Assembly: GCA_963827275.1 (NCBI GenBank)
Contig: CAWHAA010000007.1
Coordinates: 256,001-320,000 of the forward strand
From: an uncultured Spirochaetota bacterium
GTDB lineage: Bacteria; Spirochaetota; UBA4802; UBA5550
DNA length: 64,000 bases
Direction of reading: 5' to 3'
The translations under genes and the position numbers were made by a program. Below the pieces are notes generated by a model that was not told where the DNA came from, did not search any database, and was given only the letters and a program-made list of their open reading frames with translations. Below, in pieces: positions 35,350-60,397 of the stretch; positions within the stretch are counted from its first letter, which is position 1, and every line of letters starts with the position of its first letter.

Positions 35350-36535
35350 ATGAAACACGAGAACCCGAATTGCCCGGGAAAGCAGAAATATCTTTCCGGG
35401 AAAAGGATACTGCCCGCGCCGATAACAAAGGACACCGATATCGTGCAGCTGATCGACAACCTCGACGCCTACAACGGCGGCCGCCTCCGCGCCGCGTGCC
35501 AGCTGCTGCGCGACCGCTATTCAAAAGACGATGTCACCGTGGGCCTGAGCCTCGCCGGCGCGCTGACGCCCGCCGGGCTTGGCCCCTCCACGGTGATCCC
35601 GCTGATGAACCACGGCTTTGTCGACTGGATCACCGCCACCGGGGCGAACATGTATCATGACATGCACTACGCGCTTAATCTGCCGATGTTCAGGGGCAGC
35701 CACACGGTCGATGACGCAGATCTAAGGGACAAGGGCGTGACCAGGATCTACGACATCCTGTTCGACTATGAGGACGTCCTCATGGAAACGGACCGTGTTC
35801 TCAGGAGGATACTGCTGCGGCCGGAGTTCCAGAAGGAGATGGGGACCCGCGAATTTTACCACCATCTCGGGAAGGTCCTGGATGAATACGAGAAGAAGAA
35901 CGGCCTGGGCCAGGTGAGCATTCTGGCCGCGGCATACCGGAACGGCATACCCGTCTTCACCTCCTCGCCGGGGGACTCGACCCATCGGGATGAACGTGGC
36001 GGGGCTCGAGCTGCTGGCCGAGGCGGCGGGGTTGACGCATCTTTTTAAACTGAAGATCAATCCCAGCATCGATGTCAATGATTCCACCGCCATCATACTG
36101 AACGCGAAGCGGTACGAAAAGGGGAAGACCGCGGTGATACTCATCGGCGGCGGCAGCCCGAAGAACTTCATGCTCCAGACCGAGCCGCAGATCCAGGAGG
36201 TGCTCATGATCCCGGAGGTGGGGCAGGACTACGACATCAACATCACCGACGCCAGGCCCGATACCGGCGGTCTGTCCGGGGCGCCCCCCAGCGAGGCGGC
36301 AAGCTGGGGCAAGATCGATCCCACGAAGCTCGACGAGACCGTGACCGCGTACCTCGACGTGACGCTCGCCTTTCCCCTGCTGATGGCGTATGCCCTGAAG
36401 ACCACCAGCCCCAAAAAGCTGAAGCGGCTCTACGACCGGGGCGAGGAGCTGCACAGGAAGCTGATCGAGTCGTACCTGGAGAACAACAAGGAAGTCGATG
36501 AGCTGAAAAAGCTCATGGGAAAATTGCAGGCATAA
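35350..36535 (+). CDS. speY: Deoxyhypusine-synthase-like homospermidine biosynthesis protein (~394 aa); +1 frameshift at ~35981
   Basis: STGAN-like [37 protein letters not shown]. Removing one C at 35981-35983 restores SSPGDSTIGMNVA. Confidence 0.87.
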
Positions 36536-37821: not shown

Positions 37822-38196
37822 ATGAACATACGCGCAAAGAGCATTGGAAACATCACGGTTGTTTACTTGATCGGTCGGCTCGATATATTTGAGTCCGAGT
37901 CCGCGGAGATGGACCTGTTCGACATTGTGGAAGAAAATCCGGAAAACCACATGGTGATCGTCCTTGAAAAGCTTGATTACCTGAGCAGTTCGGGATTGCG
38001 GATATTCATCTCGCTCAAGCGCTTCCTTGAAAACAGGGGGAGGCGTTTGATCCTCTGCAACGACAGAAACAATGCGGTGAATATATTTTTCAAGATCGTC
38101 AATATCGGACAGATGTTCGATATTTTCAGGTCGGAGGACGAGGCGGCACGGTATATTGCCGCCGGGAAAAAGACGAAAGCGGGCCGCGTGGCCTGA
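37822..38196 (+). CDS. STAS-domain anti-sigma-factor antagonist
   Basis: GRLD..LDYLSSSGLR; GGAGG RBS; TTGACA at 37750. Confidence 0.88.
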   Translation: MNIRAKSIGNITVVYLIGRLDIFESESAEMDLFDIVEENPENHMVIVLEKLDYLSSSGLRIFISLKRFLENRGRRLILCNDRNNAVNIFFKIVNIGQMFDIFRSEDEAARYIAAGKKTKAGRVA

Positions 38197-41339: not shown

Positions 41340-41611
41340 AATTGTTCTACCCCTCCACTTGTGTTGATGAAAAAATGATTTTTTACAATTACCGCTATTA
41401 CACCCGGGAAAAGAATAGTGCAATCTATTTATCAAGGGTGCTTTTATAGTATGTCTGTCATATCTTATAAAATAAACAAAAAAATCAAGCACAATGGGAA
41501 TTTTATCCGGCGCGGTTATGCCCCGTATCAGGGGTAAAATTGCCCGGAAATGGCATTTAGGCTTGACAGGGACATCTGAATCGCATAACAATTACATGGG
41601 TATTCCATGTC

Positions 41612-43363
41612 ATGTCGAAAAAAAAGGATACATCACGTCTGACTGAATTCGGGCTTGTCAGAAAGATCGGCGCAATTGACAACCCGATACTCCGTCATTT
41701 CATAAAAAAACACGGCCTGGATGACCAGGACTCCCTTCTGCTCGGGGTCATACTGGACCTGACGGACCAGATGAAGACTCCCATCAAGACGACGTACCGC
41801 GCCCTGGCCGATACGGCAGGTCTTACGCCGATGCAGGTGTACCGCGGGATCGGCTCGCTGCACCGCCACCGCATCATCGAGTACAAGCCCACGGGCGATT
41901 ACGTGCATGTCTCTTTCCACGAGATCGACGAGTCGATCGAGGAGATCACACTCGCACACGCAAACGCGCGGAAGATAAAGAAGATCGAGGACTACCTGTC
42001 GTTTGTCAAAGCGCAGAACTACGTGCCGTCCGCCGAGCTGTTCGACCTGATATATCCCGTAGTCGGCAGGCTGATCGCGGCAAAAATAGCGGAAGCGTTC
42101 CGCGCCATGGTCAACTACGTCAATGACCGGCTTGAATCATCGTTGAGCCTGGCCATGTGGCGCTACCGCTTCAAGAGCGTCCGCAGCGGTGTGCCGCTGG
42201 CCGAGATCATCATGCGGGAATCACTTCCATACTTTATCGACGAGATATTCCTTATCACGAAAAAATCGTCTATCCTTGTCGGCCACGCGTCGAGGACTGA
42301 AGAAAAGTCCGTGGACAGGGACCTTGTCGCCGGCATGCTGTCGGCGATAAATGATTTTCTGAAGACCTCATTTAAAAACGGCGCGTCAGGCGCGAACGAG
42401 ATACAGTTCGGCGATTACCGCATCATGATATACGAAAGCGCGCATTTTTACGCGGCGGTGGTGGCATACGGCTCCCCGTCGCTGGACCTTGTCGGCGCGG
42501 TGAACAATGTCATGGACGAAATTCACGTGAAGTACCGCGCCGTGCTGAAGAATTTCGACGGCGACATGTCAAAGGTCGATGGTATAGACCAGCCTCTCCG
42601 CCACCTGATAGCGGAGGCCAACAGGGCCGCAACACCGCAGGGCGGCGGTTCGTTGATCAAGGTGAAGGTCGCGGGCGCCCTTGTCGCGGCGGTCTGTATT
42701 GCCGGTTCGGCCTGGTGGACCTATGCTTCAATCAGGGACTGGCGGCTTGAAAAGAGAATTAACGACCGCATTGAACAGAACATGCCTCCTTTCTCGCATG
42801 ATGCCGAGGTTTCCGTCAGCGGCGGCACCGCCGTCATACGGGGCTTCGTGAGCTCGCGTCAGGCCGGTGAGGCGCTGGCGAAAGAGGCCGGGGCGTTTGA
42901 AGAGATCAGCGTGGTGCGCAACCGGACCATCGCTGCCGATTACCGGTCGGTGGAGACCTATTCGAAAGACCTTGACGGGCTCCGCGCGGGGCTTGAATCT
43001 TTCAGGCTCATCGCGGTGCGGCAGGACCTGGAAAAAATCATTGTCCAGTTCCCCGCCGGAGCAACCGCAATGGGGAACCCCCAGGCGCTGCAGGTGAAGC
43101 GGGCCGTTGAAATATTGAAGCACTATCCGCTGGTGCATGTGGACATAGTCGCCTTTAACGACCCCGACGGCGGGTACGAGCTGAACCGGGGCCTGGCGGA
43201 AAAGCGCATGAAGGCGGTGCGCGACTCGCTGGCGTCGATGGGTATTGCCCCCGGGAGGCTTCACCTTCTTGATTTTGATCCGGACATCCTCTCGTCCGAC
43301 TCCCGGTTTGCTGAGTACCGGGACCGCAGGGGTATAATGCTGTTCGCCAGGTATGCTGAATAA
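41612..43363 (+). CDS. Membrane protein: winged-HTH-like N domain, longin/roadblock-like domain, TM, BON, OmpA-like peptidoglycan-binding domain
   Basis: TYRALADTAGLTPMQVYRGIGSL (HTH); IFLI..S.IL..DLVAGMLSAINDF..EIQFGDYRI; one TM; AVIRGFV..VVRN (BON); ND..G..N..LAEKR..AVRD.L..GI..RL (OmpA). Confidence 0.72.
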   Translation: MSKKKDTSRLTEFGLVRKIGAIDNPILRHFIKKHGLDDQDSLLLGVILDLTDQMKTPIKTTYRALADTAGLTPMQVYRGIGSLHRHRIIEYKPTGDYVHVSFHEIDESIEEITLAHANARKIKKIEDYLSFVKAQNYVPSAELFDLIYPVVGRLIAAKIAEAFRAMVNYVNDRLESSLSLAMWRYRFKSVRSGVPLAEIIMRESLPYFIDEIFLITKKSSILVGHASRTEEKSVDRDLVAGMLSAINDFLKTSFKNGASGANEIQFGDYRIMIYESAHFYAAVVAYGSPSLDLVGAVNNVMDEIHVKYRAVLKNFDGDMSKVDGIDQPLRHLIAEANRAATPQGGGSLIKVKVAGALVAAVCIAGSAWWTYASIRDWRLEKRINDRIEQNMPPFSHDAEVSVSGGTAVIRGFVSSRQAGEALAKEAGAFEEISVVRNRTIAADYRSVETYSKDLDGLRAGLESFRLIAVRQDLEKIIVQFPAGATAMGNPQALQVKRAVEILKHYPLVHVDIVAFNDPDGGYELNRGLAEKRMKAVRDSLASMGIAPGRLHLLDFDPDILSSDSRFAEYRDRRGIMLFARYAE

Positions 43364-43391
43364 AAAGGAAAGCGGGGTTCAAGGAATGAGC

Positions 43392-43922
43392 ATGGGCGCA
43401 TACAAATACAAAATTGTCATGCTGGGCGAGTTTGCCGTGGGAAAGACGAGCCTCGTCAAGCGGTTTGTCCATAACGTGTTCGACGATCTCTATCTCACGA
43501 CCATCGGCGTCCGGGTCATGAAAAAGGACGTGGTTATCAGCGGTCCGCCGGATGCGCGGGTTACCCTTCTCCTCTGGGACATCGGCGGGCTCCAGGATTT
43601 TGAAACGCTTATGCCGCAGTACCTGCAGGGAGCGAGCGGGGCCATCATAGTCGCCGACCTCACGCGGGTCAAGACGATCACGCTGCTCGAGTGGTATGCC
43701 GAGCAATTCAGGAGGACAAATCCGGACAGCGCCATCGCTGTCGCCTTTAACAAGGATGACATGTTCCATTACGAGAAGGCGTCAGCGGAGGTGAAAGGCC
43801 TTGTCGAATCCTGCGGGCAACAGTACGGCGATGCCGTGTTTCGTACGAGCGCCAAGACCGGGTTGAATGTGGAGAAGTTGTTCGGCTGGCTGGCCGGGGT
43901 CATCCGCGGCGGCCGATCATGA
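43392..43922 (+). CDS. Rab-like Ras-superfamily small GTPase (Rup type)
   Basis: G1 GEFAVGKTS, G2 YLTTIG, G3 WDIGG, G4 NKDD, G5 TSAKTG; AAGGA RBS before ATG 43392. Confidence 0.93.
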   Translation: MGAYKYKIVMLGEFAVGKTSLVKRFVHNVFDDLYLTTIGVRVMKKDVVISGPPDARVTLLLWDIGGLQDFETLMPQYLQGASGAIIVADLTRVKTITLLEWYAEQFRRTNPDSAIAVAFNKDDMFHYEKASAEVKGLVESCGQQYGDAVFRTSAKTGLNVEKLFGWLAGVIRGGRS

Positions 43923-45460
43923 TGAAGGGAGTGGAATCGGTACTCGGGAAAGGCTTCGGCATATATTTCGCCTTCGTCGATCCCTCGTTCATGCTGATTT
44001 TTTCGGATGATTCCATCTGCAAATACCTCGGCACGGGCGACATCCCCGGGCCAGTCCGCCTTGAAGAAGTCTTTCCGGAAATAGTCGGCCTCGAGGACGA
44101 GATCGGCAGGGTCATTTCCGGCGGGAAATCCCGGTTCACCATCAACACGATCACCCGCTTCCCTGAGAGGGACATATATTTCAATCTCAATTTTGTCAGT
44201 CCCGGACCGGGTGAAAACGGGTGTCTCCTCGTCCTCGAGGACGTGACCCTGGCCAGCATCTCCCTGCGCAATGTACAGCAGAAAAGGAATGAGCTGCTGC
44301 TGAAGAACCAGGAGCTCATTCAGCGCGAAGAATTTATCCGCACCCTCCTCAACACCATACCGAACCCGATCTATTACAAGGACATGGAGGGGAGATATAT
44401 CGGCTGCAACAGGGCGTTCAGTGAGCTCGCCGGCAGGCCGGAGGACCATATCATCGGTATGACCGCGACGGACATCTGGGGGCCCGAACGGGCCTCGCTT
44501 CTTGACGCAATGGACGGCAGGCTGCTTGAGCAAAAAGGGGGCCAGGCGTTCGAAACCTCCATCACCGACCTCGGGGGGGCGTTGCGTCACGTGGTGGTCA
44601 ACAAAGCGCTGTTTTCGGGTGCGGACGGGGGCCCGGCGGGCATAGTCGGCGTCTTCAATGACATCACCGCGCTGAGAAAGGTCATGGAAGACCTGGCGAG
44701 GAGCGAGCATGAGCTCCAGAAGCGGAACAGGGCGATGGAGCGGAGCCTTGTCATGGCGCGCAGGACCATGGCCGCCATCATGCAGGAAAAAATGCCGTCG
44801 TCGGAACACCTTGATATACATTGCCGGTTCCTGCCGCTCGAGGGCATAGGCGGGGATTATTGCAGCGTCACCGTGACCGGCGATTCAACGTCGGTTTTCA
44901 TATGTGATATTTCGGGACACGGGATAACCGCCGCCCTGTTCATCATGATGATAAAATATATTTCTGAACGCCTCATGGAAGTGTACGGGGGCGACCCGGC
45001 GGAATTCCTGGCAAAGCTCAACAGCGAGGTGAACTCGTACGGCCATTCGTATTACGTCACCGGACAGTACGGTATCTTTACGTTAGGCGCCAAAAAAAAG
45101 TTTGTCTATTCGAGCGGCGGGCATCCCAGGCCGGTACTGGTGAAACGCGGCGGCACGGCATCATTTCTGGATTGCACGGGCAAAGCGATAGGGATAATAA
45201 GGGACAGCAGCTTTGAGCGCATGGAGGTGGAACTGGAAACCGGGGACATGCTTTTTTTCTACACTGACGGGATTCCTGAAGCCAGGAACCATGCGGACGA
45301 AGCCATGGGGTTCGACAATACGCTGCTTCAGCTGTTTTCCCGTTCCATCAGGCGGACACTCCCGGAAACGATGGACGCGGTGATAGACGAGGTCAATGCC
45401 TATTGCGGCGGTATTGAATTCAATGATGATGTGCTCCTGCTCGGGTTTGAGGTGTTATAA
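43919..45460 (+). CDS. PAS-like + PAS + SpoIIE/PP2C Ser phosphatase
   Basis: GGDY, DISGHG, GHP, YTDG, DD motifs; ATGA overlap with the GTPase stop. Confidence 0.9.
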   Translation: MMKGVESVLGKGFGIYFAFVDPSFMLIFSDDSICKYLGTGDIPGPVRLEEVFPEIVGLEDEIGRVISGGKSRFTINTITRFPERDIYFNLNFVSPGPGENGCLLVLEDVTLASISLRNVQQKRNELLLKNQELIQREEFIRTLLNTIPNPIYYKDMEGRYIGCNRAFSELAGRPEDHIIGMTATDIWGPERASLLDAMDGRLLEQKGGQAFETSITDLGGALRHVVVNKALFSGADGGPAGIVGVFNDITALRKVMEDLARSEHELQKRNRAMERSLVMARRTMAAIMQEKMPSSEHLDIHCRFLPLEGIGGDYCSVTVTGDSTSVFICDISGHGITAALFIMMIKYISERLMEVYGGDPAEFLAKLNSEVNSYGHSYYVTGQYGIFTLGAKKKFVYSSGGHPRPVLVKRGGTASFLDCTGKAIGIIRDSSFERMEVELETGDMLFFYTDGIPEARNHADEAMGFDNTLLQLFSRSIRRTLPETMDAVIDEVNAYCGGIEFNDDVLLLGFEVL

Positions 45461-45480: not shown

Positions 45481-46752
45481 ATGGTACACACGTTTACAAG
45501 GGAAATGACGCTCCCGGGGCGTTTCGCCTTCGGCAAGACGGGCCTGGTCATGCTGGCGTTCATGTTTTGCGCCCTGCATTGCGATTCCGGCAGGCAGCTC
45601 AGGGAAAAAGATGAGCTGGGCATGCATATCCGGAGCGCGGTTGACAATAATGTCCCCGTCGCCGTACGGGACGCGCTCGATGAAGGCTTTAACGCAGACC
45701 ATGTCTTCACAGATGGGTGGAGGCTCCTGCATGTGGCGGCGAAATGGGACGAGGGGAGGGTGCTGCGCCTCTGCTTTGATGCGGGGAGCGGAATAACAAC
45801 CGCCGGCGTCAGTGCGGCGCGCAATACCGGCAGTGTCAGAGAGCGGTCAGGGGAAATTGTCTCTCTCCTGATCGGGAAACGGGCTGACGTAAATGGCAAG
45901 ACGGCAGAGGGGGCGACCCCGCTGCATATTGCGGTTGCATCGCTCAAGCGCGATGTAACAGATTTCCCCTCTATTTCTCCCGTGGAGGGCAGGATTTCGT
46001 CACGCTTCGGGTGGCGCGGCTCCCCGTTTGACAACAACAGCGATTATCACCGCGGCCTGGACATAAGCGCCAGGAACGGCACCCCGGTCCGCGCCGCCGC
46101 GGACGGCATTGTTGCCATGACCGGCATGAACGATACGGCCGGGAATTATATCGTATTACAGCACCGCGAGGGGGTCCAGTCGCTATACGGGCACTGCCAT
46201 CTTTTCGCGGTGCGGAAGAACGCCCGCGTCAGGCGGGGCGCCATTATCGGGTATGTCGGGAGCTCCGGCGCGGTAAGCGGCGACCACTGCCACTACGAGG
46301 TGCGTGTCAACGGCGCGCCCGTTGATCCTCTCGCATATATCAATCAGAAAGAACGATGCGATGTCCAGCACGGGATTGTGAGCGCCCTGGTCGGGGCGCT
46401 GCTGTCGCATAAAGCGGCGGTCAACGCGAGGGACGGCGACGGCAGGACGGCGCTCATCGAGTGCGCCGGCAAAAGCGACGCTATCTCCCGCCTCCTGGTC
46501 GAGCATGGCGCCGACATCAACGCGCAGGACGACAGCGGCATTTCGCCCCTTCATGAGGCAGCCGCGTTTGACGAGGGGCTGGTCCGCTATCTCATCGAGA
46601 AGGGCGCCCGCGCCACTGCCAGGACAAGCTGCGAATATTGCGCCATCGGCGGCCAGATCTATCGCTCCAGCACCAGCCCGCTTACCGTTGCACTGAAGAG
46701 CGGCAACACTGCGATCGCTGAGTTGTTGAAGCGCAATGGTGCAGTAGAATAG
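45481..46752 (+). CDS. Ankyrin-repeat protein with an embedded M23 peptidase domain, possible lipoprotein
   Basis: GATPLH, GRTAL and GISPLH ankyrin repeats flank HRGLD..HCHYEV. Confidence 0.8.
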   Translation: MVHTFTREMTLPGRFAFGKTGLVMLAFMFCALHCDSGRQLREKDELGMHIRSAVDNNVPVAVRDALDEGFNADHVFTDGWRLLHVAAKWDEGRVLRLCFDAGSGITTAGVSAARNTGSVRERSGEIVSLLIGKRADVNGKTAEGATPLHIAVASLKRDVTDFPSISPVEGRISSRFGWRGSPFDNNSDYHRGLDISARNGTPVRAAADGIVAMTGMNDTAGNYIVLQHREGVQSLYGHCHLFAVRKNARVRRGAIIGYVGSSGAVSGDHCHYEVRVNGAPVDPLAYINQKERCDVQHGIVSALVGALLSHKAAVNARDGDGRTALIECAGKSDAISRLLVEHGADINAQDDSGISPLHEAAAFDEGLVRYLIEKGARATARTSCEYCAIGGQIYRSSTSPLTVALKSGNTAIAELLKRNGAVE

Positions 46753-46989: not shown

Positions 46990-49230
46990 ATGCCGGGAAC
47001 CAACATGACAGCATCGAAAGATATTAAGAAGAAGCTTTTCATAAAGCTGTATTCAGAGAGCGATTCCAGGCTCCTGGTGCCGGGCAGTGAACGTGCCATG
47101 GAGCTGATACAGAATATCCAGCGTGATGACATCAGGAAAATATATGTCATTGCTTCAAGCCAGTCAATATCCCTGCCGTACCTGCACCTTTTTAAAAAGC
47201 AGATCCCCTGGCTCATGACACGGGAACTGCTCCTGGAGAAGGTAGAGCGCCGGGACATATATACGATAAAGTCGATTATTGACGACATCAATGCATCCAT
47301 CAAGACAGACCTGGGATGCGAGATCATTTTGTTCAACGGGAGCATTGCCGGTGTTATCCTGGCATGCTTCTACGTGAACGCGGGCAAGGACCCCGCGCGT
47401 GCAATCGAGCAGGTCAGGAGGACCATGCCGAACGTTCTCCTCTCGGGAAACGACATTTCATTCATCAACGAATTCGGCACGTTCGTCACTGAAGCCCCCG
47501 CCGCATCACCGGGACTTCGCGCCGCGGCGGGGCCGCGTCCAGCCGGGACAGTTGCGGCGCCGATACCGGTGAAAGGGGCGGTCCGGGAGCGTGAGAGCGG
47601 CGAGGTAGATGAGTTCGATTCGTTCCGGCGCCTCATCGACCGGCCGGAGCCGGCGGGCATGCTGATCCGTTTCAGGATCGCGACAAAGATTGTCGCACTG
47701 GTGGCGCTCCTCATCATGGTTTCACTGTCGTTGATGATCTTCCTCGGGACCGCCTCGTTCAAGCAGGACAGCCGGTCAAGGGTAAACGACACCAACGCCA
47801 TGACGGCCCGGTTGATCGGCGAGAGGCTGCAGGATGAGATCGCCTCTTCCATTGACAGGGCCCGCATCGCCGCGGAGATTTCCTCGGCCGGCCGGTCGTC
47901 CGGCAGCAGCGGGGACGTAATAAAAAGCATGCTGTTCGGTGACAGGGGCAATTTCATCTTCCTTGGCATAGCCGGAAGGGAGGGAAGTGAGTTCACGTTC
48001 AAAAAGGCTTTTTATAATGAAGAGTATATCGATAATAACCAGGTCTCCAAAGAGGCAATCCGGGCCCTGAACAGGAAAAATGCCGCGCATTTCACGCAAT
48101 CATTTGATAAAAAGATAGTCATACGCAACGTGTCGCCCGACGCGGGGACCCCGCTCCTGGGAATAAGTTTTCCGTACCGGGAAAAGGGCGGTGCGGTGAC
48201 GGCTGTAATCGTGTGCCATGTCCCGCTTGACCGTTTCATGGAAGCGTCGAGGATCTCCGGACCGGCGCGGACCTTCATGGTTAACGACAGCGGCGATTGC
48301 GTTGTTGACCCCGAGCGGAACAGGGTCCTTTCGAGGATGAACATGGCCGATGTCCCGATAGTCAAAAAGATGCTGCTCAGCACCGCGGGCAGCGGGACGA
48401 TGCGCTACCGGGACAGAGAGGGCCTGTATCACCTGGGGTCCTACAACAAGCTTGATATGTTCGGCCTGGGCGTTGTCGTCACCGCGGCGGAAGGCCCGGT
48501 GCTGCGCGGCGTGTACGATATCCAGAGGAGGAACTTCATCATCCTGGCGATCGTCCTGGTCGCAGCGGTGCTTGGCGCGTTTATATTCTCCAAGACGCTG
48601 TCGGCCCCCATCGACGAGCTGAACCGGCTTGCGGTTGCGGCGCCCCCGGGGGCGCTGAAGCTTTCCGCCCCCGCTGAAGGCGATGAGATATTTTACCTGA
48701 CGCACTCCTTCCGGGAAGTGCTCCGCTCATATCTCGATTCGCAGGCGCGGCCCGCTGATTACCGGCGGGCCGAACAGCCCGCTGCCGGTGAAACGGCTGG
48801 CGGCGCGGGGATGGCTGAGCCGGGACCCGCGCGTGACGCGATGACCCAGCATTTCAGCACCGAAGGCCTGAAGATCCAGGTCACCTATGACGGCCCGGAA
48901 GTCTCCATGATCTGGATGGGGAGGGGGAACATGGGGAACCCCGGCGAGCTGCTCAATCCCTATCTTGAAGGGATCATAAACTCCATGCGGGGAAGGGAGC
49001 TCACCTGCGATTTTTCCTCGCTCGAGACGATGAATGCCCAGATCGTCCAGTCCATCATCAAGTTCGCGCATATAGTGGATGAAAACCGCATACGGGCCAG
49101 ATTCGTCTATAACAAGTCGATCGACTGGCAGGACGCTTCGTTTGAGGCGCTGAGCGCTGTCGTGAGCGAGATGGATACAATATCCCTTGACGGCAGAATG
49201 CTGGAAAAGAACATGTTTATTTTGCAGTAA
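46990..49230 (+). CDS. Membrane sensor: degenerate PTP/DSP-like N domain, TM-dCache-TM, degenerate HAMP, SiaC/STAS-like C domain
   Basis: LACFYV..G.DP..AIEQVR; two TMs around a ~270-aa Cache-like region; DFSSLETMN..Y..DWQ..SF.AL. Confidence 0.55.
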   Translation: MPGTNMTASKDIKKKLFIKLYSESDSRLLVPGSERAMELIQNIQRDDIRKIYVIASSQSISLPYLHLFKKQIPWLMTRELLLEKVERRDIYTIKSIIDDINASIKTDLGCEIILFNGSIAGVILACFYVNAGKDPARAIEQVRRTMPNVLLSGNDISFINEFGTFVTEAPAASPGLRAAAGPRPAGTVAAPIPVKGAVRERESGEVDEFDSFRRLIDRPEPAGMLIRFRIATKIVALVALLIMVSLSLMIFLGTASFKQDSRSRVNDTNAMTARLIGERLQDEIASSIDRARIAAEISSAGRSSGSSGDVIKSMLFGDRGNFIFLGIAGREGSEFTFKKAFYNEEYIDNNQVSKEAIRALNRKNAAHFTQSFDKKIVIRNVSPDAGTPLLGISFPYREKGGAVTAVIVCHVPLDRFMEASRISGPARTFMVNDSGDCVVDPERNRVLSRMNMADVPIVKKMLLSTAGSGTMRYRDREGLYHLGSYNKLDMFGLGVVVTAAEGPVLRGVYDIQRRNFIILAIVLVAAVLGAFIFSKTLSAPIDELNRLAVAAPPGALKLSAPAEGDEIFYLTHSFREVLRSYLDSQARPADYRRAEQPAAGETAGGAGMAEPGPARDAMTQHFSTEGLKIQVTYDGPEVSMIWMGRGNMGNPGELLNPYLEGIINSMRGRELTCDFSSLETMNAQIVQSIIKFAHIVDENRIRARFVYNKSIDWQDASFEALSAVVSEMDTISLDGRMLEKNMFILQ

Positions 49231-49252: not shown

Positions 49253-49639
49253 ATGAATTTGTATGCGAGATTACATAAATGGGAAAAGGCATTGTTAGTG
49301 GTATGCCTTGTTCTGTTTTTTTCACTCGTGACCCTGCTGTATTTTGATTTAAAGAAAGATTGTGAAAGGTCTGCGCGCGAGCTCGGGATTATCGGTAAAG
49401 TCATTTTTATTGAAAATGATGTCAGCCGTAAATACTCTCATGCCACTGCCGGGGCAGGATTGCAGCAGGGGAGCGACATACTGTACAACGACAGCATCAC
49501 AACCGGCCTAGATTCTTCAGCCGGTATCGCGCTGAAGGACGACACACTGATCGAGTTGTGTGAGGATTCAATTGTGACATTCGGCCTGTCAGGCAACGAG
49601 ATACTGGTGAATCTTGAAAAGGGATGCGCGGGCGTAAAT
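49253..49639 (+). pseudogene. N-terminal fragment of a TM-FecR-domain protein, cut at the junction
   Basis: TM segment, then IGKV..NDV.RK..YNDSITTG.DSSA.I.L.D.T.IEL.EDS..VNLEKG (first half of a FecR domain). Confidence 0.7.
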
Positions 49640-51523
49640 GAGCCGTTGATCCAGACCGCTTTCACTGCCATTGCGCTGGCTGTTGCCGCCATACCCGAAG
49701 GTTTGCCTGCGGTAGTTACGGTAACGCTGGCGCTGGGTATGCACCGCATGGCTGGTCAACGCGCCATCGTCAAGCGTCTTGCGGCCGTGGAAACGCTAGG
49801 GTGTACCACCGTAATATGCACCGACAAGACCGGCACTTTGACGGTCAACCAAATGACCGCCCGGTCGCTTTTCTATAAAGGCCGGAGCTATAACGTGACG
49901 GGTGAAGGGTATCATGTGAGCGGGGAAATTGTGCCGGTCACGGACAACGATGCGCCTGCCGGCATGAGCGATTTATTGCTACCGCTGGCTTTGTGTAATA
50001 ACAGCGAATTACAGGAAAATAAGGTGTTGGGCGATCCGATGGAAGGCGCGTTGCTGGCGCTGGCCGCTAAAGGTGGAATGACCAAAAAGGAAGCTATTGC
50101 CCAACTGCCGCGTATGGCTGAAATCCCTTTTGATGCCGAACACAAATTCATGGCGACATTCCACCATCATGATGATGGCATGAAAATATTCATTAAGGGT
50201 GCGCCCGAAGTATTGCTTGACCTATGTGGCTTCAATCTTGATGAACAGGGTAATACTGTGGCTATTCAAAAAGAGCGTATCCTGGAACACAATGCGGGCA
50301 TGGCAAGTACCGGACTCCGGGTATTGGCTGTTGCCGTCACGCACATTAAGTTACCCCGGCAGGAAGAAGCTTCTAAAGAAATGGATTTAGCAGTAGTAAA
50401 CGGTGATTTATTTAAATATATACAAGGACTTACCTTTGTCGCGCTGGTCGGCCTGATGGACCCGCCGAGAGCGGAAGCGCGTGAAGCTATCACGCTTTGT
50501 AAACAGGCAGGTATTGCCGTCAAGATGATTACCGGCGATCAAAAAATAACCGCAACGGCGATTGCCGGCGAATTGGGACTGACAGGCGACGTCATTGAAG
50601 GCGCGGAATTGGCTGCCATGGATGACAACACCTTGGCCGCTTGTATCAATTCCATCTCAGTGTTCGCTCGCACTGCGCCCGAACAGAAAGTACGCATTAT
50701 CAAAGCCTTAAAACTGGATGGGCATATTGTCGCGATGACCGGCGATGGCGTCAACGATGCGCCGGCGCTCAAGAGCGCGGACATTGGCATAGCAATGGGT
50801 ATCACCGGCACCGATGTTGCGCGGGAAGCGGCGGCCATGATTCTGACCGATGACAACTTCGCCACGATAGTTAAAGCTGTCAAGGAAGGCCGGGGTATTT
50901 ACGAAAACATGATCAAATTTGTCCGTTTTCAGCTGTCCACCAATATCGGCGCAATTCTGACAGTAGCCGGCGCCCCCTTATTGGGTATGCCCGTACCGTT
51001 CACCGCCGTGCAATTGTTATGGATAAACATCATTATGGATGGTCCGCCCGCGATGTCGCTAGGGGTTGACCCCATCAGCCCAGACAGCATGAACGAAGCG
51101 CCGCGTGATCCCGATGCGCGGATATTGTCATGGCGGCGCTTCGGTAATCTTTTTAGCTATGGCTTGACCATGGCTATCGGTACGCTGGGCGTTTTATTTT
51201 ATGGCTTGAAGACCGGCGAAACCAGCCATGCCACTACGCTGGCTTTTAACACGTTTGTGCTGTTCCAGATCTTCAACGTTTTTAATGCCCGCTCGGAAAA
51301 AGGCAGCGCCTTTAATGGACATTTCTTTGCCAATAAAATGTTCTGGCTGGCAATCGCCTCGGTGACGTTGCTACAAATACCCGTTATTCATTGGCCACCT
51401 GCTCAGTCCATATTCCATACCACCGCATTAACACCCACGGATTGGATCATTGCAGCAGGTGTTGCGTCATCGGTATTAACTTTTGAGGAATTGCGTAAAT
51501 TGTTATCGAGGCAAAAGCATTAG
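49640..51523 (+). pseudogene. C-terminal ~627 aa of a type II cation-transporting P-type ATPase (no TM1-3 or actuator domain), fused in frame to the FecR fragment
   Basis: IPEGLP, DKTGTLT, KGAPE, DPPR, TGD and GDGVNDAP are present; TGES is absent. Confidence 0.85.
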
Positions 51524-51581
51524 TGCATGTTACTTTGGAACGTGCATGAAATAACTTGAACATCTTACCCCCTCTCCCTCC

Positions 51582-52904
51582 CTTACAAGTGTAGGTTTTT
51601 TCACTCACCGCCTCCCGCCACGCAATTAGCCAAAGGCGTTTCGTAGCTATCGGGCAGCCTGGGCCATGTTTCCGGTCGGCCAGGTTTAACGGGGAGAAGT
51701 TGATGGTTAAGCAAAGCTGCAATAATCAATGACCAACCGTGTTGGAAAATACCTATTATCCGCCAACGTTTTCCGCGTCGCCTTACCGCACCTGGAACCG
51801 AAGGTTCTTTGATGTCCAAGGGCGTGTCGGCTTGAGCTTCCGCTTCACCACCGACAGACAACAGCCACCACGTGGCTATAGCAATCGCCATCCATAATCG
51901 CTCTGCACGGGCCGGGTCATCCATGCGCGTGTGTTGCCACTGCCAACCACTCCGTTTACTGTGTTTGAAGCCTTGTTCTATCCAGGCTCTCAAACCGTAC
52001 CAGCAGGCATCTGCGCAGTCGGGAGCCAAATCGGTTAGCACCAGCCAAGGGTCTTGATGTTCTTCGCCCCAGTAGCCCAGCAGCGTGCAGCGCAATTGGC
52101 TTTTCTTGCCCTTAAATGCGGTTCCCCGTCCCTGCCAACGTCGGCCCTTGGCAGGCACCCAGTAGGAAAACGGCTTCCAGTGATACCAGCCTTCGCGACG
52201 AAACGTGCCTTGGCCGTTGACACGCAGAAACGGATGCCATTTTAGTTCGACGATGGCTTCAAACAACCACTTCGCGTATAAGCCACGATCCGCCAACACA
52301 ATGACTGTCCAGCCTTTGGGCACAAGACCTTTAAACCGCTTCAACAACGCCTTCCACTCCGGCTTCCAGGCGTGCTTCTCCTCGGCCTTTAAAACTTTCC
52401 AGGCAACGGGCACGGCACAACCTCGATACACAACACTAATCGCCAGTACCACAAAACGATCCCCTAAACTCGTCGCATCCATGGCAATCGCTAACTGTTG
52501 ACCCGACCAGCCATCCAGTAGCCACGCCAGCCAAGGTGCCCAACATTCGGTAACATCGAGTTCGACGCGCTTCTTTCCAGCTTTGGCGTCCGCTTCCCGG
52601 TAAGTATCGCGCAGTCTTTCACGCACCGTATTGTATGACTGCCCCATGAGCGGTGCCAACACATCCGCCACAGCGGTTAAACTGCACGAGCGGGCAATGA
52701 CCATGCCGAAACTCCATAACGCCAGGCCCATAGCCTGCGGCTTGCTAAGCGAGGGAAATCGCATGACAACGGTGTCGATCCATTGGTATAGTTCTGGGTG
52801 GCGAGACATGGCGGTACCTCCGGTAGATGGATGTTGATGACACTCATCAATTTACCGCAACTCCATGTCTTGTCACACTTTTTTAAAAAACCTACACTTG
52901 TAAG
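51582..52904 (-). mobile_element. Insertion sequence, 1,323 bp, IS4-like DDE type
   Basis: Perfect 20-bp TIRs CTTACAAGTGTAGGTTTTTT / AAAAAACCTACACTTGTAAG; flanking direct repeat TCTCCCTCC (51573-51581, 52906-52914). Confidence 0.9.
51601..52809 (-). CDS. DDE transposase (IS4-like)
   Basis: IAMDAT, LADRGL and Y.LR.WIE..FK (YREK-type) motifs. Confidence 0.9.
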   Translation of the reverse strand: MSRHPELYQWIDTVVMRFPSLSKPQAMGLALWSFGMVIARSCSLTAVADVLAPLMGQSYNTVRERLRDTYREADAKAGKKRVELDVTECWAPWLAWLLDGWSGQQLAIAMDATSLGDRFVVLAISVVYRGCAVPVAWKVLKAEEKHAWKPEWKALLKRFKGLVPKGWTVIVLADRGLYAKWLFEAIVELKWHPFLRVNGQGTFRREGWYHWKPFSYWVPAKGRRWQGRGTAFKGKKSQLRCTLLGYWGEEHQDPWLVLTDLAPDCADACWYGLRAWIEQGFKHSKRSGWQWQHTRMDDPARAERLWMAIAIATWWLLSVGGEAEAQADTPLDIKEPSVPGAVRRRGKRWRIIGIFQHGWSLIIAALLNHQLLPVKPGRPETWPRLPDSYETPLANCVAGGGE

Positions 52905-52969
52905 TTCTCCCTCCGGGAGAGGGCCGGGGAGAGGGGACATAAATAATCAAGTTATTTCATGCGCGTTCA

Positions 52970-55643
52970 TTATTTTGAATTTAGCGGTTCGTCTCGATAA
53001 ATCCAGCCCCTGCGTCGCATCCACTTCTCGATTTCCACCACAAAGAACACGACCGAAGAAAGCGCCAGACAAAACAGCAGTTCATTGCGGCTTAAGGCTT
53101 CGGTCTTGAAGATGGGCTGCAAGACTGGCACATAAAGCACCGCCATCTGCATACCAAAAGTCAACAGCACAGCGCCCAGGAGCGGCTTATTGGAAAACAG
53201 CCCCTGACTAAAGAGAGATTCCCGTTCCGACCGGATCGCCAAGACATGCCCCATCTGTGATAAAGTCAGCACGGTGAACACCATGCTCTGCCAGTGAGTG
53301 GAACCGGTGAAATAAGCCCAGCCTTGGGAAAACAAAGAGACTCCACCCATCAGGAGGCCGATCCACAGGATGTGCTGCCACATACCTTGGGCAAAAATAC
53401 TTTCCTGGGGTGGGCGAGGCGGGCGTTGCATGACGCCATGCTCTTCCGGTTCGACGGCCAAAGCCAGACCCGGCAAGACCATCGGTGACCAGATTGATCC
53501 AGAGAATGTGGATGGGCAGCAAAGGGATCGGCAATCCCAAAAAGGGTGCCAGAAACAGCGTCCATATCTCCGCCGAGTTACTGGTCATGGTGTATTTGAT
53601 GAATTTGCGGATATTGTCAAAAATCCGCCGTCCTTCCCGCACTGAAGTCACGATGGTCGCGAAATTATCATCCAGCAACACCATGTGTGACGCTTCTCTT
53701 GCCACGTCCGTGCCGATTTTTCCCATGGCGATGCCGATATTGGCGGAGCTGAGCGCCGGCGCATCGTTGACGCCGTCCCCGGTCATCGCCACAAATTCTC
53801 CCTGGTCCTGCAGTGCCTTGACGATCATGATCTTCTGCTCCGGTGCGACCCGAGCATAAACACGCACTTCTTCGACCTGTTTCTTGAACTCTTCAAGACT
53901 CATGTCGCGCCAGTTCCGGCCCCGTCAGCACCTTGCTGCCGGCATCGGCAATACCAACCCGCATGGCAATAGCCCGGGCGGTTGCCGGGTGATCGCCGGT
54001 GATCATGACCGGTTTAATACCGGCGCTCTTGCACAGTTCCACCGACTTCCCTGGCCTCCGGCCTGGGCGGGTCCATGAGCCCTACCAAACCCAGAAAGCA
54101 CAGTTCGCTTTCGATCACGTCGGCAGTCAGCGTTTGTGGGTCGCTCAGGGAATTGACGGTAGGCCAGAGCCAGCACGCGCAGTCCATCGGCGGCCATTTG
54201 ATCTGGCGACCGCCAGTATCTTCTTGCTTTCTAAGGGTTGTGTGGCGGTCGCCGGCCCATAGACTGACGCAACGCGGCAGCAGAGCCTCGGGCGCGCCTT
54301 TGGCGTAAGCGATGAACACGCCATTTTCCTGATGAAGCGTGGTCATGAGCTTACGCTCGGAGTCGAAAGGGATTTCATCCAGCCGAGGCGCTTTTTTGGC
54401 AAGCTCCGTGCCTTCGTAGCCCGCGCTTCCGGCCGCTTCGTACAAGGCGATCTCGGTTGGATCGCCCAGCAATTGACCGTTCTGGTCGCGGCGGGCATCA
54501 TTGTTCAGGGCGAGCGCCCGCAACAGCCGGGGCGGAAAGTCAGGGGTGATGCCTTCCTTTAAGAGACCGTCGACATAAAACATTTCGGCGTGCATGCGGT
54601 TTTGCGTCAGCGTGCCGGTCTTGTCCGAGCAGATAAAGGTCACCGAGCCCAAGGTTTCCACTGCGGGCAGGCGCCGGATCAGGGCGTTCTTCTTGACCAT
54701 CCTGCGTGCGCCCAAAGCCAGGGAAACCGTGGCTACGGCAGGCAGAGCCTCGGGGATGGCGGCCACGGCCAGGCTGATGGCGGTCATAAACATCAATAGG
54801 GGCGGTTCACCACGCAGCACGCCGACCACGAAAAGGATGGCGCAGATGGCTAAAACCAATAAAGCCAAACGCTGGCCGAAACGTGGCCAGGCGCTGTTGC
54901 AACGGGGTCTTGCTTTCTTTTTCCTGGCGCAGGAGTTCGGCGATTTTACCGAGTTCAGTGTCCATCCCCGTGGCAATGACCACGCCGACGCCACGGCCAT
55001 AGGTTGCGATAGTCCCTTTGTAAGCCATGTTGCGCCGGTCGCCGAGTGGCGAATCCAGCTCCCGTATGAGAGCCCCCGACTTTTCGACCGGCAGGGATTC
55101 GCCGGTTAGCGCGGCTTCCTCCACCTTCAGGCGTGTGACATCCAACAGTTTCAAATCGGCCGGAACGACATTGCCGGCCTCGAGCATGACCAGATCGCCG
55201 GGGACCAGCTTCTGCGCCGCTATGGTTTGGATTTTTCCCTCCCGTAACACCTGTGCGGTAGGACTGGCCAGCCGCTTGAGCGCAGCCACTGCCCTTTCCG
55301 CACGGTATTCCTGGACAAAACCAATGATGGCGTTCAATACGACGATCACGATGATGGCAATCTCATCCGTCACATCGCCGATTAACCCCGATACAATGGC
55401 AGCCATGATCAGCACGATGATCATGAAATCGGCGAATTGCCCGAAAAACATCCGAATGGGTCCTCGCCGTTGCTGCTCCCGGATGGCGTTCGGTCCGTGG
55501 GCCGAGAGTCGATCTTCCACTTCCTCGCGGCTCAAGCCTTTTTCAGGATCGACCTTGAGCCACGCGGTCGTCTGCCAAGGCTCCAGGAGATGCCATGGCG
55601 GCGTGGAAAGTTGGCTTTTAGGGGGCTTTTGTCGTTTTGTCAT
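52970..55643 (-). pseudogene. Type II cation-transporting P-type ATPase (~890 aa) with at least five frameshifts (sequence error or decay)
   Basis: [34 protein letters not shown] and WINLVTD are spread over consecutive ORFs in different frames. Confidence 0.88.
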
Positions 55644-55961
55644 GGCTTGAACTCGTGAAAAATGGACACTGCTGGAATCTTATAAGATATAAACGCATAG
55701 AGTCAATGCAACACGGCTTAAAAAATTACAGGGTATCAGTTTGCGTCTACTAGAACAAAACAGAGGCTATTCAGTAAAAACATTTAACAGGTTAACGCAT
55801 GAAAAAGGTTAATATATCAAAGTGGTGAATAAAAAATTACCTGGGTGAGATAGCCATAAATGGGGGTAATAATACATCCATCATCGCGTTAGACCCTATC
55901 ATTCAGCTTACTCTAAATATGAGTGCAATGTCTCAATTGTTACTGGAATTACACCTGAAAT

Positions 55962-57284
55962 ATGAATAATCTTTTCCTGATTATTGTCGCGATAGTGCTG
56001 GTTGCGCTCAATGGCTTTTTTGTGGCGGCAGAATTTGGTCTCGTCAAACTGCGGCAGACACGGATTCGCGAGATTGCCAAGACAAAAGGCTGGCGCGGCC
56101 GCATCCTGGCGAAAGTACACGCAAAACTCGATGCCTATTTATCCGCTTGCCAGTTGGGTATTACGCTGGCTTCACTGGGCTTGGGCTGGGTCGGGGAACC
56201 TGCCTTCGCCGGCCTGCTGGAGCCCGTATTTGTCAGGTTTGGGGTGACCTCGCCGGAATTGGTACACGGCATTTCCTTCGCGTTCGCTTTTACTATCATC
56301 TCGTTTCTGCATATTGTCGTCGGTGAGCTGGCGCCGAAATCCATGGCGATTCGTAATCCTGAACGGATCGGGTTAATGAGCGCCGCGCCCCTCTATGGTT
56401 TTTATTGGCTGATGTACCCCGCCATCTGGTTGCTCAACTCCAGCGCCAACCTGGTCCTGAGGGTATGTGGTTTGGGCAATGTCCATAGTCACGATGCGCA
56501 TTATTCCGCCGATGAACTCAAACTGATTTTGCGCGGCAAGGACCAGGATGACCGGTTTACCCGCGATGAATGGAATATCCTGGCAAAATCGCTCGATTTC
56601 AGCGAACTGGAAGTGTCCGACCTGATGCGCCCAATCCAGGAAATTACCGCGTTGCACCGCTCCCTGTCTTTGCAGGCAAACCTGAAAACGGTCTACGCCA
56701 AACGCTTCAGCCGTTATCCTTATTTCGACACCAACGGTATTGATGTGCTGGGGGTGATCCATTTGAAGGATTTGTTTTTTGCCCAGCAGGAAGGCAGGGC
56801 CATTGAAGATTTGCATAAATACCTGCGGCCGATCCAGTATATTTCACCGGATACCCCCGCACTGGAACTATTCCGTCATTTTCGTATGGGCGCCGCGCAT
56901 TTTGCCGTCATCGGACAAAAAGGGCAAAAGCCGGAAGGCTTCATCACGCTGGATAATTTATTAAGCGCCATGGTCGGCGAGATACGCGACGAGTTCCGTC
57001 AAAACATCAATGACTGGTCCCGGCTCGATGACGGTACGTTGCTGGTCAAAGGCAGTCTGCCGATATTCTCGCTGGAACGGATACTGGGAATCGATATTGA
57101 AAACGAAGAACTCGAATTGGAAGACGAGGTCTCAATCGGCGGGCTGATCATGTCGAAGCTACAGGATATTCCCGTAGAAGGCCAGAAAATAGAATTCAAT
57201 CAATTCGATATCATCGTCAAAAAAATGAATGGTCCACGAACTCTCTTTGTTCAAGTTTACCCTGATAAAATCAGCGATTTTTAA
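55962..57284 (+). CDS. CNNM/CorB (TlyC, hemolysin-family) transporter: DUF21-CBS-CorC
   Basis: NGFFVAAEF, QLGITLASL.LGW.GE, GELAPK, FSRYP, GEIRDE. Confidence 0.92.
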   Translation: MNNLFLIIVAIVLVALNGFFVAAEFGLVKLRQTRIREIAKTKGWRGRILAKVHAKLDAYLSACQLGITLASLGLGWVGEPAFAGLLEPVFVRFGVTSPELVHGISFAFAFTIISFLHIVVGELAPKSMAIRNPERIGLMSAAPLYGFYWLMYPAIWLLNSSANLVLRVCGLGNVHSHDAHYSADELKLILRGKDQDDRFTRDEWNILAKSLDFSELEVSDLMRPIQEITALHRSLSLQANLKTVYAKRFSRYPYFDTNGIDVLGVIHLKDLFFAQQEGRAIEDLHKYLRPIQYISPDTPALELFRHFRMGAAHFAVIGQKGQKPEGFITLDNLLSAMVGEIRDEFRQNINDWSRLDDGTLLVKGSLPIFSLERILGIDIENEELELEDEVSIGGLIMSKLQDIPVEGQKIEFNQFDIIVKKMNGPRTLFVQVYPDKISDF

Positions 57285-57396
57285 AAGCGTACCACATTCT
57301 TTGTCTCAGTAGGCTGAATAGCTTATGGCTTAGGATGGCTTGCGCTGAACGTATAAGCTAAACTAGATCGACTTATCATTTTATTGGAGTGCGCTC

Positions 57397-58770: not shown

Positions 58771-59131
58771 ACTCGATAGGTGCTCGCAACCGGACTGTTT
58801 GGAAACCAATGCCGTTAAATGGACGGAAGCCTTCGTTACAACTCGTCAGCAAAATCCCAAGCATCGATTTAGTTGGCCCAAGCCGGACTGCTATAAAGCG
58901 GTTCGAAAACACTTATCGGAGATGAACCAGGCTCATTGCGCTTTCTGCGATGGACAAATAGGCACTGAAAGCAGGGAAACAGTTGAACATTTTCGTCCAA
59001 AAAGCCGGTTTCCAGGTTTTGCGTATCTATGGGATAACTTGTTTCCTTGTTGCGATATGTGTCAATCGCAAAAACGTGAACAGTTTGATGACTATAACTA
59101 CCGTTTTTTCCTGGACGATAACCAAGCATGA
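58763..59131 (+). CDS. HNH endonuclease, PtuB-like, short (122 aa)
   Basis: CAFCD..VEHFRPKS..WDNLFPCCDMCQ..K; TTG start overlaps the ATPase end. Confidence 0.78.
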   Translation: MRKLDRCSQPDCLETNAVKWTEAFVTTRQQNPKHRFSWPKPDCYKAVRKHLSEMNQAHCAFCDGQIGTESRETVEHFRPKSRFPGFAYLWDNLFPCCDMCQSQKREQFDDYNYRFFLDDNQA

Positions 59132-59144
59132 AACCGGACGACTG

Positions 59145-60380: not shown

Positions 60381-60397
60381 CCCTGGAAAAGCAGTTG

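What the first reader, a model, noticed from the sequence alone, without database searches (positions are those of the whole stretch)
41612..45460. Trans-envelope small-GTPase module: wHTH-longin-like-TM-BON-OmpA protein + Rab-like GTPase + PAS-PP2C
Seen: three tightly packed genes (28-nt gap, then an ATGA overlap). The GTPase has all five G motifs, but G3 is DIGGL, lacking the catalytic Gln of DxxGQ. Known: prokaryotic Rup-type Ras GTPases occur with OmpA-domain and PAS signalling genes and are functionally uncharacterised. Longin/roadblock folds act as GEFs/GAPs of small GTPases (eukaryotic Rab GEFs, MglB). Unusual here: the OmpA partner starts with an apparent winged HTH (aa ~35-105), so one chain could span DNA, GTPase regulation, membrane and peptidoglycan. 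Inference: a cell-wall-sensing switch or nucleoid tether that signals through a partner-switching phosphatase, possibly to STAS proteins such as 37822-38196.
Basis: partly seen in the sequence, partly recalled or inferred. Interest (0 to 1): 0.8.

Follow-up and report, generated by a model that had tools for sequence, protein, structure and literature searches.

The report
Spirochaete Rup GTPase operon with winged-helix
These three genes are a spirochaete variant of a bacterial Rab-like GTPase signalling operon described by computer in 2014; its membrane protein has lost the usual coiled-coil partner and gained a predicted winged-helix domain, and the neighbouring phosphatase is predicted to grip the GTPase and likely lends it the catalytic residue it lacks.

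Summary
Observation confirmed. The locus is a Group 1 Rup small-GTPase system (Wuichet & Sogaard-Andersen, PMC4316618): DUFX-TM-OmpA protein, Rab-like GTPase without the G3 Gln, and an output protein with a conserved N-terminal Gln. This scan met the system before on other DNA (19 notes, one spirochaete). What is special: in one spirochaete clade the wHTH is always present and the canonical coiled-coil gene (DUFY) was never found (69 wHTH loci, 0 with DUFY; redundant loci). A complex model supports binding of the GTPase to the output's PAS-like N-domain (ipSAE 0.83, best control 0.31) and puts invariant Gln121 and Asn124 against switch I and the P-loop, making the 2014 trans-glutamine GAP guess directly testable. 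Longin-GTPase binding was not modelled. Nucleoid tether and the STAS link are not supported: the wHTH is neutral, no shared operator, presence patchy (3 of 16 congeners), STAS not syntenic, and relatives often use HD-GYP output instead. New variant of a known, untested kind; interest 0.5.

The parts
41563..41592 (+). sigma70-type promoter-like site (TTGACA-18-AACAAT) in front of the operon
   Evidence: 10 of 12 matches; count not above shuffles; a TTGA-type hexamer lies at a similar distance in most wHTH-type loci by eye
41612..43363 (+). ORF1, 583 aa: wHTH - helical stalk - longin - TM - BON - coil - OmpA-like (DUFX:OmpA of Group 1 Rup, wHTH-bearing variant)
41669..41923 (+). winged-helix domain, aa 20-104; most conserved domain of the protein; invariant L27 R28 L36 L44 Y62 Y77 H84 R85 F102
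41930..42223 (+). conserved helical stalk, aa 107-204 (N-terminal half of DUFX), low model confidence
42224..42631 (+). longin domain, aa 205-340 (b-b-a-b-b-b-a-a); conservation peak on helix 1 (D235 D237 M242 A245 I246 D248 F249)
42656..42727 (+). single transmembrane helix, aa ~349-372
42743..42934 (+). BON domain, aa 378-441
   Evidence: OsmY Z 11.2, rmsd 1.5 over 69
43013..43354 (+). OmpA-like peptidoglycan-binding domain, aa 468-581, with invariant D517 and R532
43392..43922 (+). Group 1 Rup small GTPase, 176 aa, G3 DIGGL without Gln
43919..45460 (+). output protein, 513 aa: PAS-like GTPase-binding domain - signalling helix - PAS - coil - SpoIIE/PP2C phosphatase
44276..44293 (+). QQKRNE motif (aa 120-125) of the output; Q121 invariant; predicted to reach the GTPase active-site cleft
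44879..45451 (+). SpoIIE/PP2C domain with its four Asp-bearing motifs (GGD 311, CDISGHG 329, TDG 449, DD 503)

Best explanation
This is a three-gene Group 1 Rup signalling operon in which a membrane protein likely anchored to the cell wall would load the Rab-like GTPase with GTP through its predicted longin domain, and the GTPase is predicted to bind the N-terminal PAS-like domain of the phosphatase, which likely acts as both its effector and its off-switch by lending the missing catalytic residue. Step by step: (1) shown by sequence/fold: ORF1 spans the inner membrane once, with BON and OmpA-like domains on one side and wHTH, stalk and longin on the other; (2) inferred: OmpA binds DAP-type peptidoglycan and relays envelope state through the TM helix; (3) inferred from fold and from conserved acidic/small residues on longin helix 1: a longin dimer is the exchange-factor platform, as in Mon1-Ccz1 or TRAPP; (4) predicted by a controlled complex model: Rup-GTP pairs its interswitch strand (38-42) with output strand 76-79 and takes the QQxxNE helix across switch I and the P-loop; (5) inferred: this binding re-tunes the helix into PAS-PP2C (or HD-GYP in relatives) and Gln121/Asn124 trigger hydrolysis, giving a self-timed pulse; (6) inferred, about even odds: the wHTH is a protein-binding/oligomerising module that took over from the lost DUFY coiled coil rather than a sequence-specific DNA reader.
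For: Family identity: section 18 and Table S2 of PMC4316618; DUFX homologues number 2028 clusters at E<=1e-30; GTPase groups with DUFX-linked Rups (support 0.992, 98 of 163 sequences) apart from Asgard/eukaryote Rabs. Longin: Foldseek Mon1-Ccz1 5ldd_B E 3.6e-4 and GATOR1 7t3a_K E 5e-4; VIA Z 12.6 CPLANE (rmsd 2.4, 124 aligned), 12.5 Vamp7, 12.0 Sec22, 11.5 Mon1-Ccz1, 11.0 TRAPP, 10.0 MglB over a shorter range. Complex: ipSAE 0.83 (runs 0.77, 0.84, 0.83), best of 3 controls 0.31; mark reached by 116 of 157 solved and 2 of 215 mismatched pairs; runs share at least 93% of contacts, partner pLDDT at least 88. The interface holds 3 of 5 invariant output residues (E54, G57, Q121) plus Q120, N124, E125, and invariant GTPase K7, Y34, G39, V40, G80; contacts Q121-T36, N124-T36/F14/A15. 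No solved relative of the output N-domain by profile (best E 0.82). Same N-domain sits on PP2C, HD-GYP, sigma54-activator and kinase outputs. A Rup-HD-GYP fusion exists as 8 full-length members of a 10-member cluster from several sources. OmpA D517/R532 invariant in 25 of 25; host MurE has the DNPR motif (meaning of both recalled). wHTH and DUFY never co-occur in 90 loci. An HTH-family protein acts as GEF in the actinobacterial conservon (PMC11343762).
Against: All mechanism is from models; no biochemistry exists in the papers found. The complex tool does not score the nucleotide, so 'Gln121 at the gamma-phosphate' is read from neighbouring contacts only; the job used my alignments and a ligand, unlike its calibration, and Rab-helix effector complexes could bias it. 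The output alignment is 46 of 47 spirochaete rows with near-duplicates; two Helicobacteraceae outputs have Asn in place of the Gln. Longin-GTPase binding was not modelled, and longins also serve as GAP platforms or cargo adaptors. ORF1 model has pTM 0.32, so inter-domain geometry is unknown. Four other Spirochaetota DUFX genes have neither wHTH nor DUFY, so the wHTH need not be a DUFY substitute; my DUFY profile came from 9 sequences and could miss divergent ones. Charge flanking the TM did not give a clean positive-inside signal.
Confidence: 0.55

Rival explanations
1. Same GTPase cycle, but the wHTH binds DNA: ORF1 is a membrane-tethered, wall-anchored DNA-binding protein (ToxR/CadC-like regulator or local chromosome tether) whose DNA state is coupled to the GTPase.
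For: Top fold and feature matches are DNA-binding CRP, MarR, ArsR, TrmB, HTH_36, DnaD_N proteins; it is the most conserved domain (65% pairwise vs 53% longin, 58% OmpA); invariant exposed-type residues R28, Y62, Y77, H84, R85 and K/R59; basic N-terminal helices (mean +2.4). Longin plus wHTH also occurs in Npr2/Npr3, where chromosome tethering was speculated (PMC3521125 passages).
Against: Mean net charge -0.03 over 33 sequences; first half of the recognition helix is acidic (E/D75 in 25 of 33), wing net negative; no shared palindrome in upstream regions (window's 6-bp inverted repeat is not in the others); gene is patchy (13 of 60 relatives; 19 of 79 in the order), unlike a segregation factor; fold hits include non-DNA wHTHs (kleisin, Rio2, proteasome PCI).
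Confidence: 0.3
2. Roles reversed: the longin domain is the GAP platform (MglB-like or GATOR1/FLCN-like) and the output N-domain is only an effector, or a GEF of the Sec2 coiled-coil type.
For: MglB and GATOR1 appear among fold matches; R186 in the stalk is conserved in 167 of 203 sequences and could be an arginine finger; MglB GAPs work without donating a catalytic residue (recalled).
Against: No Gln or Arg conserved at 70% within the longin; best longin matches with full coverage are GEF or adaptor longins; the GTP-containing model places the invariant Gln and Asn of the output at switch I and the P-loop.
Confidence: 0.2
3. Partner-switching pathway ending on the nearby STAS protein 37822-38196.
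For: SpoIIE-type phosphatases classically act on STAS anti-anti-sigma factors (established knowledge); the gene is a STAS 3.4 kb upstream.
Against: Not syntenic in 35 loci; four unrelated genes lie between; at least 10 STAS and 34 PP2C-like ORFs in the genome.
Confidence: 0.12

Closest known systems
Group 1 Rup system, DUFY > DUFX:OmpA > Rup > DGC/PDE or kinase (Wuichet & Sogaard-Andersen, PMC4316618)
   Same: DUFX-TM-OmpA protein, Rab-like GTPase lacking G3 Gln, adjacent output with an invariant N-terminal Gln; GTPase falls in the DUFX-linked clade.
   Different: No DUFY coiled-coil gene (26 of 27 published rows have it); N-terminal wHTH on DUFX; phylum Spirochaetota is absent from the 27 rows; outputs are PP2C and HD-GYP; the paper did not assign a longin fold to DUFX or a PAS-like fold to the output N-terminus in the parts I read.
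Longin Rab-GEFs Mon1-Ccz1, TRAPP, CPLANE (Fuzzy/Inturned)
   Same: Longin fold over 120-135 residues, Z 10.4-12.6, next to a Rab-like GTPase.
   Different: 8-13% identity; single bacterial inner-membrane protein with periplasmic BON/OmpA; GEF activity and dimer not shown.
Actinobacterial conservon CvnABCD / MfpEDCB
   Same: Membrane protein + roadblock/longin-type domain + HTH-family module + small GTPase; MfpC (DUF742, HTH) has GEF activity (PMC11343762).
   Different: MglA-family GTPase, separate polypeptides, kinase sensor; DUF742 was not among the Pfam hits of the 33 wHTH sequences.
TBC-domain Rab GAPs (Gln and Arg fingers) and RapGAP (Asn thumb) (details recalled; cited generally in PMC4316618 introduction)
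   Same: Catalytic residue would come in trans; output motif is x-Q-x-x-N-E here and L-Q-x-A-R-E in several distant outputs.
   Different: Unrelated fold (PAS-like plus helix); activity untested.
GATOR1 Npr2/Npr3 (longin + tandem wHTH; PMC3521125)
   Same: Longin and wHTH in one chain; GATOR1 chain among Foldseek hits.
   Different: wHTH is N-terminal and single; independent fusion in one bacterial clade.

Membership tests
Group 1 Rup system | small GTPase under 240 aa with Ras-like G1-G5 and no G3 Gln | tested here: met
   176 aa
Group 1 Rup system | GTPase clusters with Group 1 Rups | tested here: met
   clade of 98 with support 0.992 containing the DUFY-DUFX-linked GTPases of L025-L034, apart from Asgard/eukaryote Rabs; the paper's own sequences were not in the tree
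Group 1 Rup system | adjacent DUFX(-TM-OmpA) gene | tested here: met
Group 1 Rup system | adjacent output with invariant N-terminal Gln | tested here: met
   Q121 in 47 of 47; the paper's logo (figure) could not be seen, so equivalence of the Gln is inferred
Group 1 Rup system (canonical four-gene form) | DUFY coiled-coil gene | tested here: not met
   no hit in the 92%-complete genome or in 69 wHTH-type loci; hence filed as a variant
Longin domain | five-stranded sheet, order b-b-a-b-b-b-a-a | tested here: met
Longin GEF | binds nucleotide-free GTPase and speeds exchange | not tested
Winged helix-turn-helix fold | a-b-a-a-b-b core with wing | tested here: met
DNA-binding wHTH regulator (MarR/ArsR/CRP/ToxR type) | basic recognition helix and wing; conserved operator | tested here: inconclusive
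   neutral domain, acidic helix start, no shared palindrome, but invariant H84 R85 Y77
OmpA-like peptidoglycan-binding domain | fold plus DAP-binding Asp and Arg | tested here: met
   Z 12.8; D517, R532 invariant; role of the pair recalled; Pfam score 20.9 is under the 27.2 cut-off
SpoIIE/PP2C phosphatase | Pfam domain above cut-off and metal-binding Asp motifs | tested here: met
   130.6 bits vs 25; motifs
Partner-switching module | linked STAS and anti-sigma kinase genes | tested here: not met

The most novel reading that the evidence does not exclude
One bacterial chain physically joins peptidoglycan, inner membrane, a Rab-GEF-type longin and chromosomal DNA, so that envelope-to-nucleoid geometry sets a Rab-like switch whose effector is also its trans-glutamine GAP: a DNA-coupled, eukaryote-style GEF-GTPase-effector/GAP relay in spirochaetes.
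Probability: 0.18. Interest if true: 0.85.

Novelty: new variant of a known kind. Interest (0 to 1): 0.5.

Why it matters
Group 1 Rup GTPases are the bacterial proteins most like Rab/Ras and, in the papers searched, have no tested regulator. A longin partner would be a bacterial case of the longin-Rab pairing central to eukaryotic trafficking, and the model names the residues (output Q121, N124; GTPase T36, I38-V42) that turn the 2014 trans-glutamine guess into a two-protein assay. The wHTH-for-DUFY swap in one clade is a natural experiment on what the fourth component does. It is an accessory module of uncultured spirochaetes, so the direct biological reach is modest.

Tried and rejected
STAS link: rejected. 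Shared operator upstream: none; three rows (L040, L041, L047) were mis-extracted and dropped. Assignment of the wHTH to a named family: no Pfam family in more than 8 of 33 members, no PDB profile hit better than E 0.7, Z values tied at 7-8.7; DUF742 not listed. DUFX-OmpA-Rup 'fusions' (7 proteins) rejected as Rosetta evidence: internal GTPase start motifs, garbled linkers and a cluster of mixed lengths suggest frameshifts; single-member Rup-kinase fusions not counted. My output-domain profile did not detect the middle of the P0241 fusion; its LQRAR motif was matched by eye. Downstream Ank-M23 gene not syntenic. No RNA holder listed. Atlas search of aa 107-345 gave only unnamed clusters under 0.9. 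Literature searches without a paper on this variant or on longin/PAS assignments: (open-licence library only; subscription papers and supplement file 1 of PMC4316618 not seen).
Full report
Observation. The three ORFs are at the stated coordinates: ORF1 41612-43363 (583 aa), a GTPase ending at 43922 (28-nt gap if it starts at ATG 43392; ATGs at 43386 and 43353 are in the same frame) and ORF3 43919-45460 (513 aa) with an ATGA overlap. The GTPase has all five G motifs, G3 being DIGGL; Pfam Ras E 2e-26, nearest solved sequences Rab6. ORF3 has PAS (144-253) and SpoIIE (321-511) domains above cut-off with the Asp motifs intact. A sigma70-like site lies at 41563-41592, though such sites are no more frequent than in shuffles. 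Homologues are labelled Spirochaetota; the region's tetranucleotide profile matches the rest of the genome.

Family. PMC4316618 (I read the abstract, outline, search passages, section 18 and the 27 'Rup Group 1' rows of supplement file 3; file 1 was not searchable, figures not held) describes Group 1 Rup neighbourhoods: coiled-coil DUFY, DUFX often with TM and OmpA, a Rup lacking the G3 Gln, and an output (DGC/PDE or kinase) whose N-terminal region has an invariant Gln, guessed to act in trans. 26 of its 27 rows have DUFY and DUFX; none is a spirochaete. ORF1's middle is this DUFX: a profile search gave 2028 clusters at E<=1e-30, and the 12 non-spirochaete loci fetched (L023-L034) show coiled coil > DUFX-OmpA > GTPase > output (9 of these 12 coiled coils built the profile, 3 were found by it). 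In a FastTree of 163 GTPase domains the window's protein lies in a 98-sequence clade (support 0.992) with those DUFX-linked GTPases, apart from Asgard and eukaryotic Rabs. The scan has noted this system 19 times in at least 18 genomes (8 shown), once in a spirochaete; word searches for the winged-helix variant and for a trans-Gln complex returned nothing.

ORF1 anatomy. AlphaFold2 on 25 sequences (mean pLDDT 73, pTM 0.32) gives b-b-a-b-b-b-a-a for aa 207-339. Foldseek lists, among OmpA hits, Mon1-Ccz1 (5ldd_B, E 3.6e-4) and GATOR1 (7t3a_K, E 5e-4). VIA-align against 48,161 chains ranks CPLANE (Z 12.6, rmsd 2.4, 124 aligned), Vamp7 (12.5), Sec22 (12.0), Mon1-Ccz1 (11.5), a Lokiarchaeal longin (11.2), TRAPP and SRalpha (11.0), MglB (10.0, aa 208-314 only); OmpA Z 12.8 and BON Z 11.2 are confirmed too. 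In 203 family sequences conservation peaks on longin helix 1 (D235, D237, M242, A245, I246, D248, F249); no Gln or Arg within the longin reaches 70%, R186 in the stalk does (167 of 203). One hydrophobic segment dominates in 23 of 23 homologues; flanking charge is not decisive, so topology rests on domain type. OmpA D517 and R532 are invariant in 25 of 25 and the host MurE has DNPR; that these mean DAP binding and DAP-type wall is recalled.

The wHTH. A model of aa 14-108 has pLDDT 89.5. Foldseek's listed rows are all winged-helix proteins but none reaches E 1e-3; VIA gives tied Z 7-8.7 for CRP, TrmB, PerR, CodY, TFE and also kleisin, Rio2 and a proteasome subunit; Pfam gives weak HTH-clan hits in at most 8 of 33 members; Atlas features agree (0.93-0.94). 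So the fold is real but generic. It is the most conserved part (65% pairwise identity vs 53% longin, 58% OmpA). It is present in 20 of 20 spirochaete genome loci whose contig includes the N-terminus and 0 of 12 others. Over 90 loci with the DUFX start (redundant across searches): 69 wHTH with no DUFY (58 with more than 1.1 kb upstream), 15 DUFY with no wHTH, 6 neither (4 intact genes from other Spirochaetota, 2 truncated); 39 unique wHTH-bearing DUFX sequences form one clade with one truncated sequence (support 0.989, 114 sequences). DUFY is also not found in the own genome, 92% complete. DUFX occurs in 25 of 401 phylum genomes, 19 of 79 in the own order, and full-length in 13 of 60 close relatives, 3 of 16 congeners: an accessory module. 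For DNA binding: DNA-binding relatives, invariant R28, Y62, Y77, H84, R85, basic N-terminal helices. Against: mean net charge -0.03, E/D at position 75 of the recognition helix in 25 of 33, net negative wing, no shared palindrome upstream (three mis-extracted rows dropped). HTH-family modules beside bacterial small GTPases can be regulators: MfpC (DUF742) stimulates exchange on MfpB (PMC11343762, passages and section 9; PMC8510531 passages), and Npr2/3 join longin and wHTH (PMC3521125 passages). I put protein-binding scaffold at about 50%, DNA binding at 35-40%, nucleoid tethering as the purpose near 10-15%.

The output and the missing Gln. Among 22 spirochaete genome loci, 19 have the GTPase and 19 the output N-domain downstream, misses being contig ends. 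Outputs swap: PP2C in 9 of 22, HD-GYP in 13 of 13 short outputs examined, often both, sometimes with a second GTPase; kinases, GGDEF-EAL and a sigma54 activator elsewhere. The shared N-domain is PAS-like (Atlas 0.96-0.98; few Pfam hits; no PDB profile hit) followed by QQxxNE: Q121 47 of 47, Q120 46, N124 42, E125 45 (46 rows are spirochaete, some near-identical). Distant outputs read LQxARE, and two have Asn for Gln. The GTPase has Gln after the G3 Gly in 1 of 44. A Rup-HD-GYP fusion has 8 full-length members of 10 from several sources. The complex model of output(1-140) x2 + GTP + Mg + Rup scored ipSAE 0.83 against a best control of 0.31; the mark was reached by 116 of 157 solved and 2 of 215 mismatched pairs; runs agree in at least 93% of contacts, partner pLDDT at least 88. 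It supports binding, it does not show it; the job differs from the calibration (own alignments, ligand). One output copy makes all listed contacts: strand 76-79 with GTPase 38-42, Q121 with T36, N124 with T36, F14 and A15. By recalled Ras numbering these are P34, G12 and G13, the cleft entered by a catalytic Gln, Arg finger or Asn thumb. Distance to the nucleotide is not reported, so GAP activity is inference. Longin-GTPase binding was not modelled.

STAS. No homologue of the 37822-38196 STAS in 35 loci; four unrelated genes intervene; the genome has at least 10 STAS and 34 PP2C-like ORFs. A STAS substrate is plausible in general, this one is not singled out.

Mechanism. Shown: gene order, motifs, conservation, distribution. 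Predicted: folds and the GTPase-output interface. Inferred: wall binding, longin as GEF, output as effector and trans-Gln/Asn GAP, control of PP2C activity, wHTH as DUFY substitute. Overall confidence 0.55; family identity about 0.95.

Print status. Searches returned only the 2014 paper for this system (other rows seen as listings only); the library lacks most subscription papers.

Verdict. New variant of a known but untested kind; interest 0.5.

Noticed in passing
window 49253-64000 (to contig end): ORF 49253-51523 joins a ~130-aa unrelated start to the C-terminal part of a P-type ATPase; from about 50 kb the tetranucleotide distance to the genome rises from 0.02-0.03 to 0.09-0.26 and several genes are frameshifted (P-type ATPase 52970-55643, RND pump 60817-63939), with a DDE transposase at 51601-52809: possible misjoin or foreign island.
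   Followed up: partly
window 35350-36535: Deoxyhypusine/homospermidine-synthase-like gene split over two frames, followed by an ornithine/arginine decarboxylase.
   Followed up: partly
window 45481-46752: Ankyrin-M23 peptidase-ankyrin gene 20 nt after the phosphatase; a wall hydrolase beside a wall-binding sensor, but not syntenic in relatives.
   Followed up: partly
L115-L118: DUFX genes in four other Spirochaetota with neither wHTH nor DUFY; in L115 and L116 the GTPase lies on the opposite strand.
   Followed up: no
L001 7724-10740, L002 7738-11908, L069, L070: Operons with two Rup GTPases, each placed before its own output, under one DUFX-OmpA gene.
   Followed up: partly
L023-L034 upstream genes: DUFY coiled coils and canonical DUFX proteins begin with a similar short helix (e.g. 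QVRDLLFG vs KLRQLLFE); both are gone in the wHTH clade, suggesting they pair through it.
   Followed up: no
proteins P0192, P0202, P0205 and others: Many Rup-like GTPases fused to TIR_2 domains fall in or near the Group 1 clade of my tree.
   Followed up: no
window 46990-49230: 746-aa membrane signalling protein with dCache domain and uncharacterised N- and C-terminal parts.
   Followed up: no
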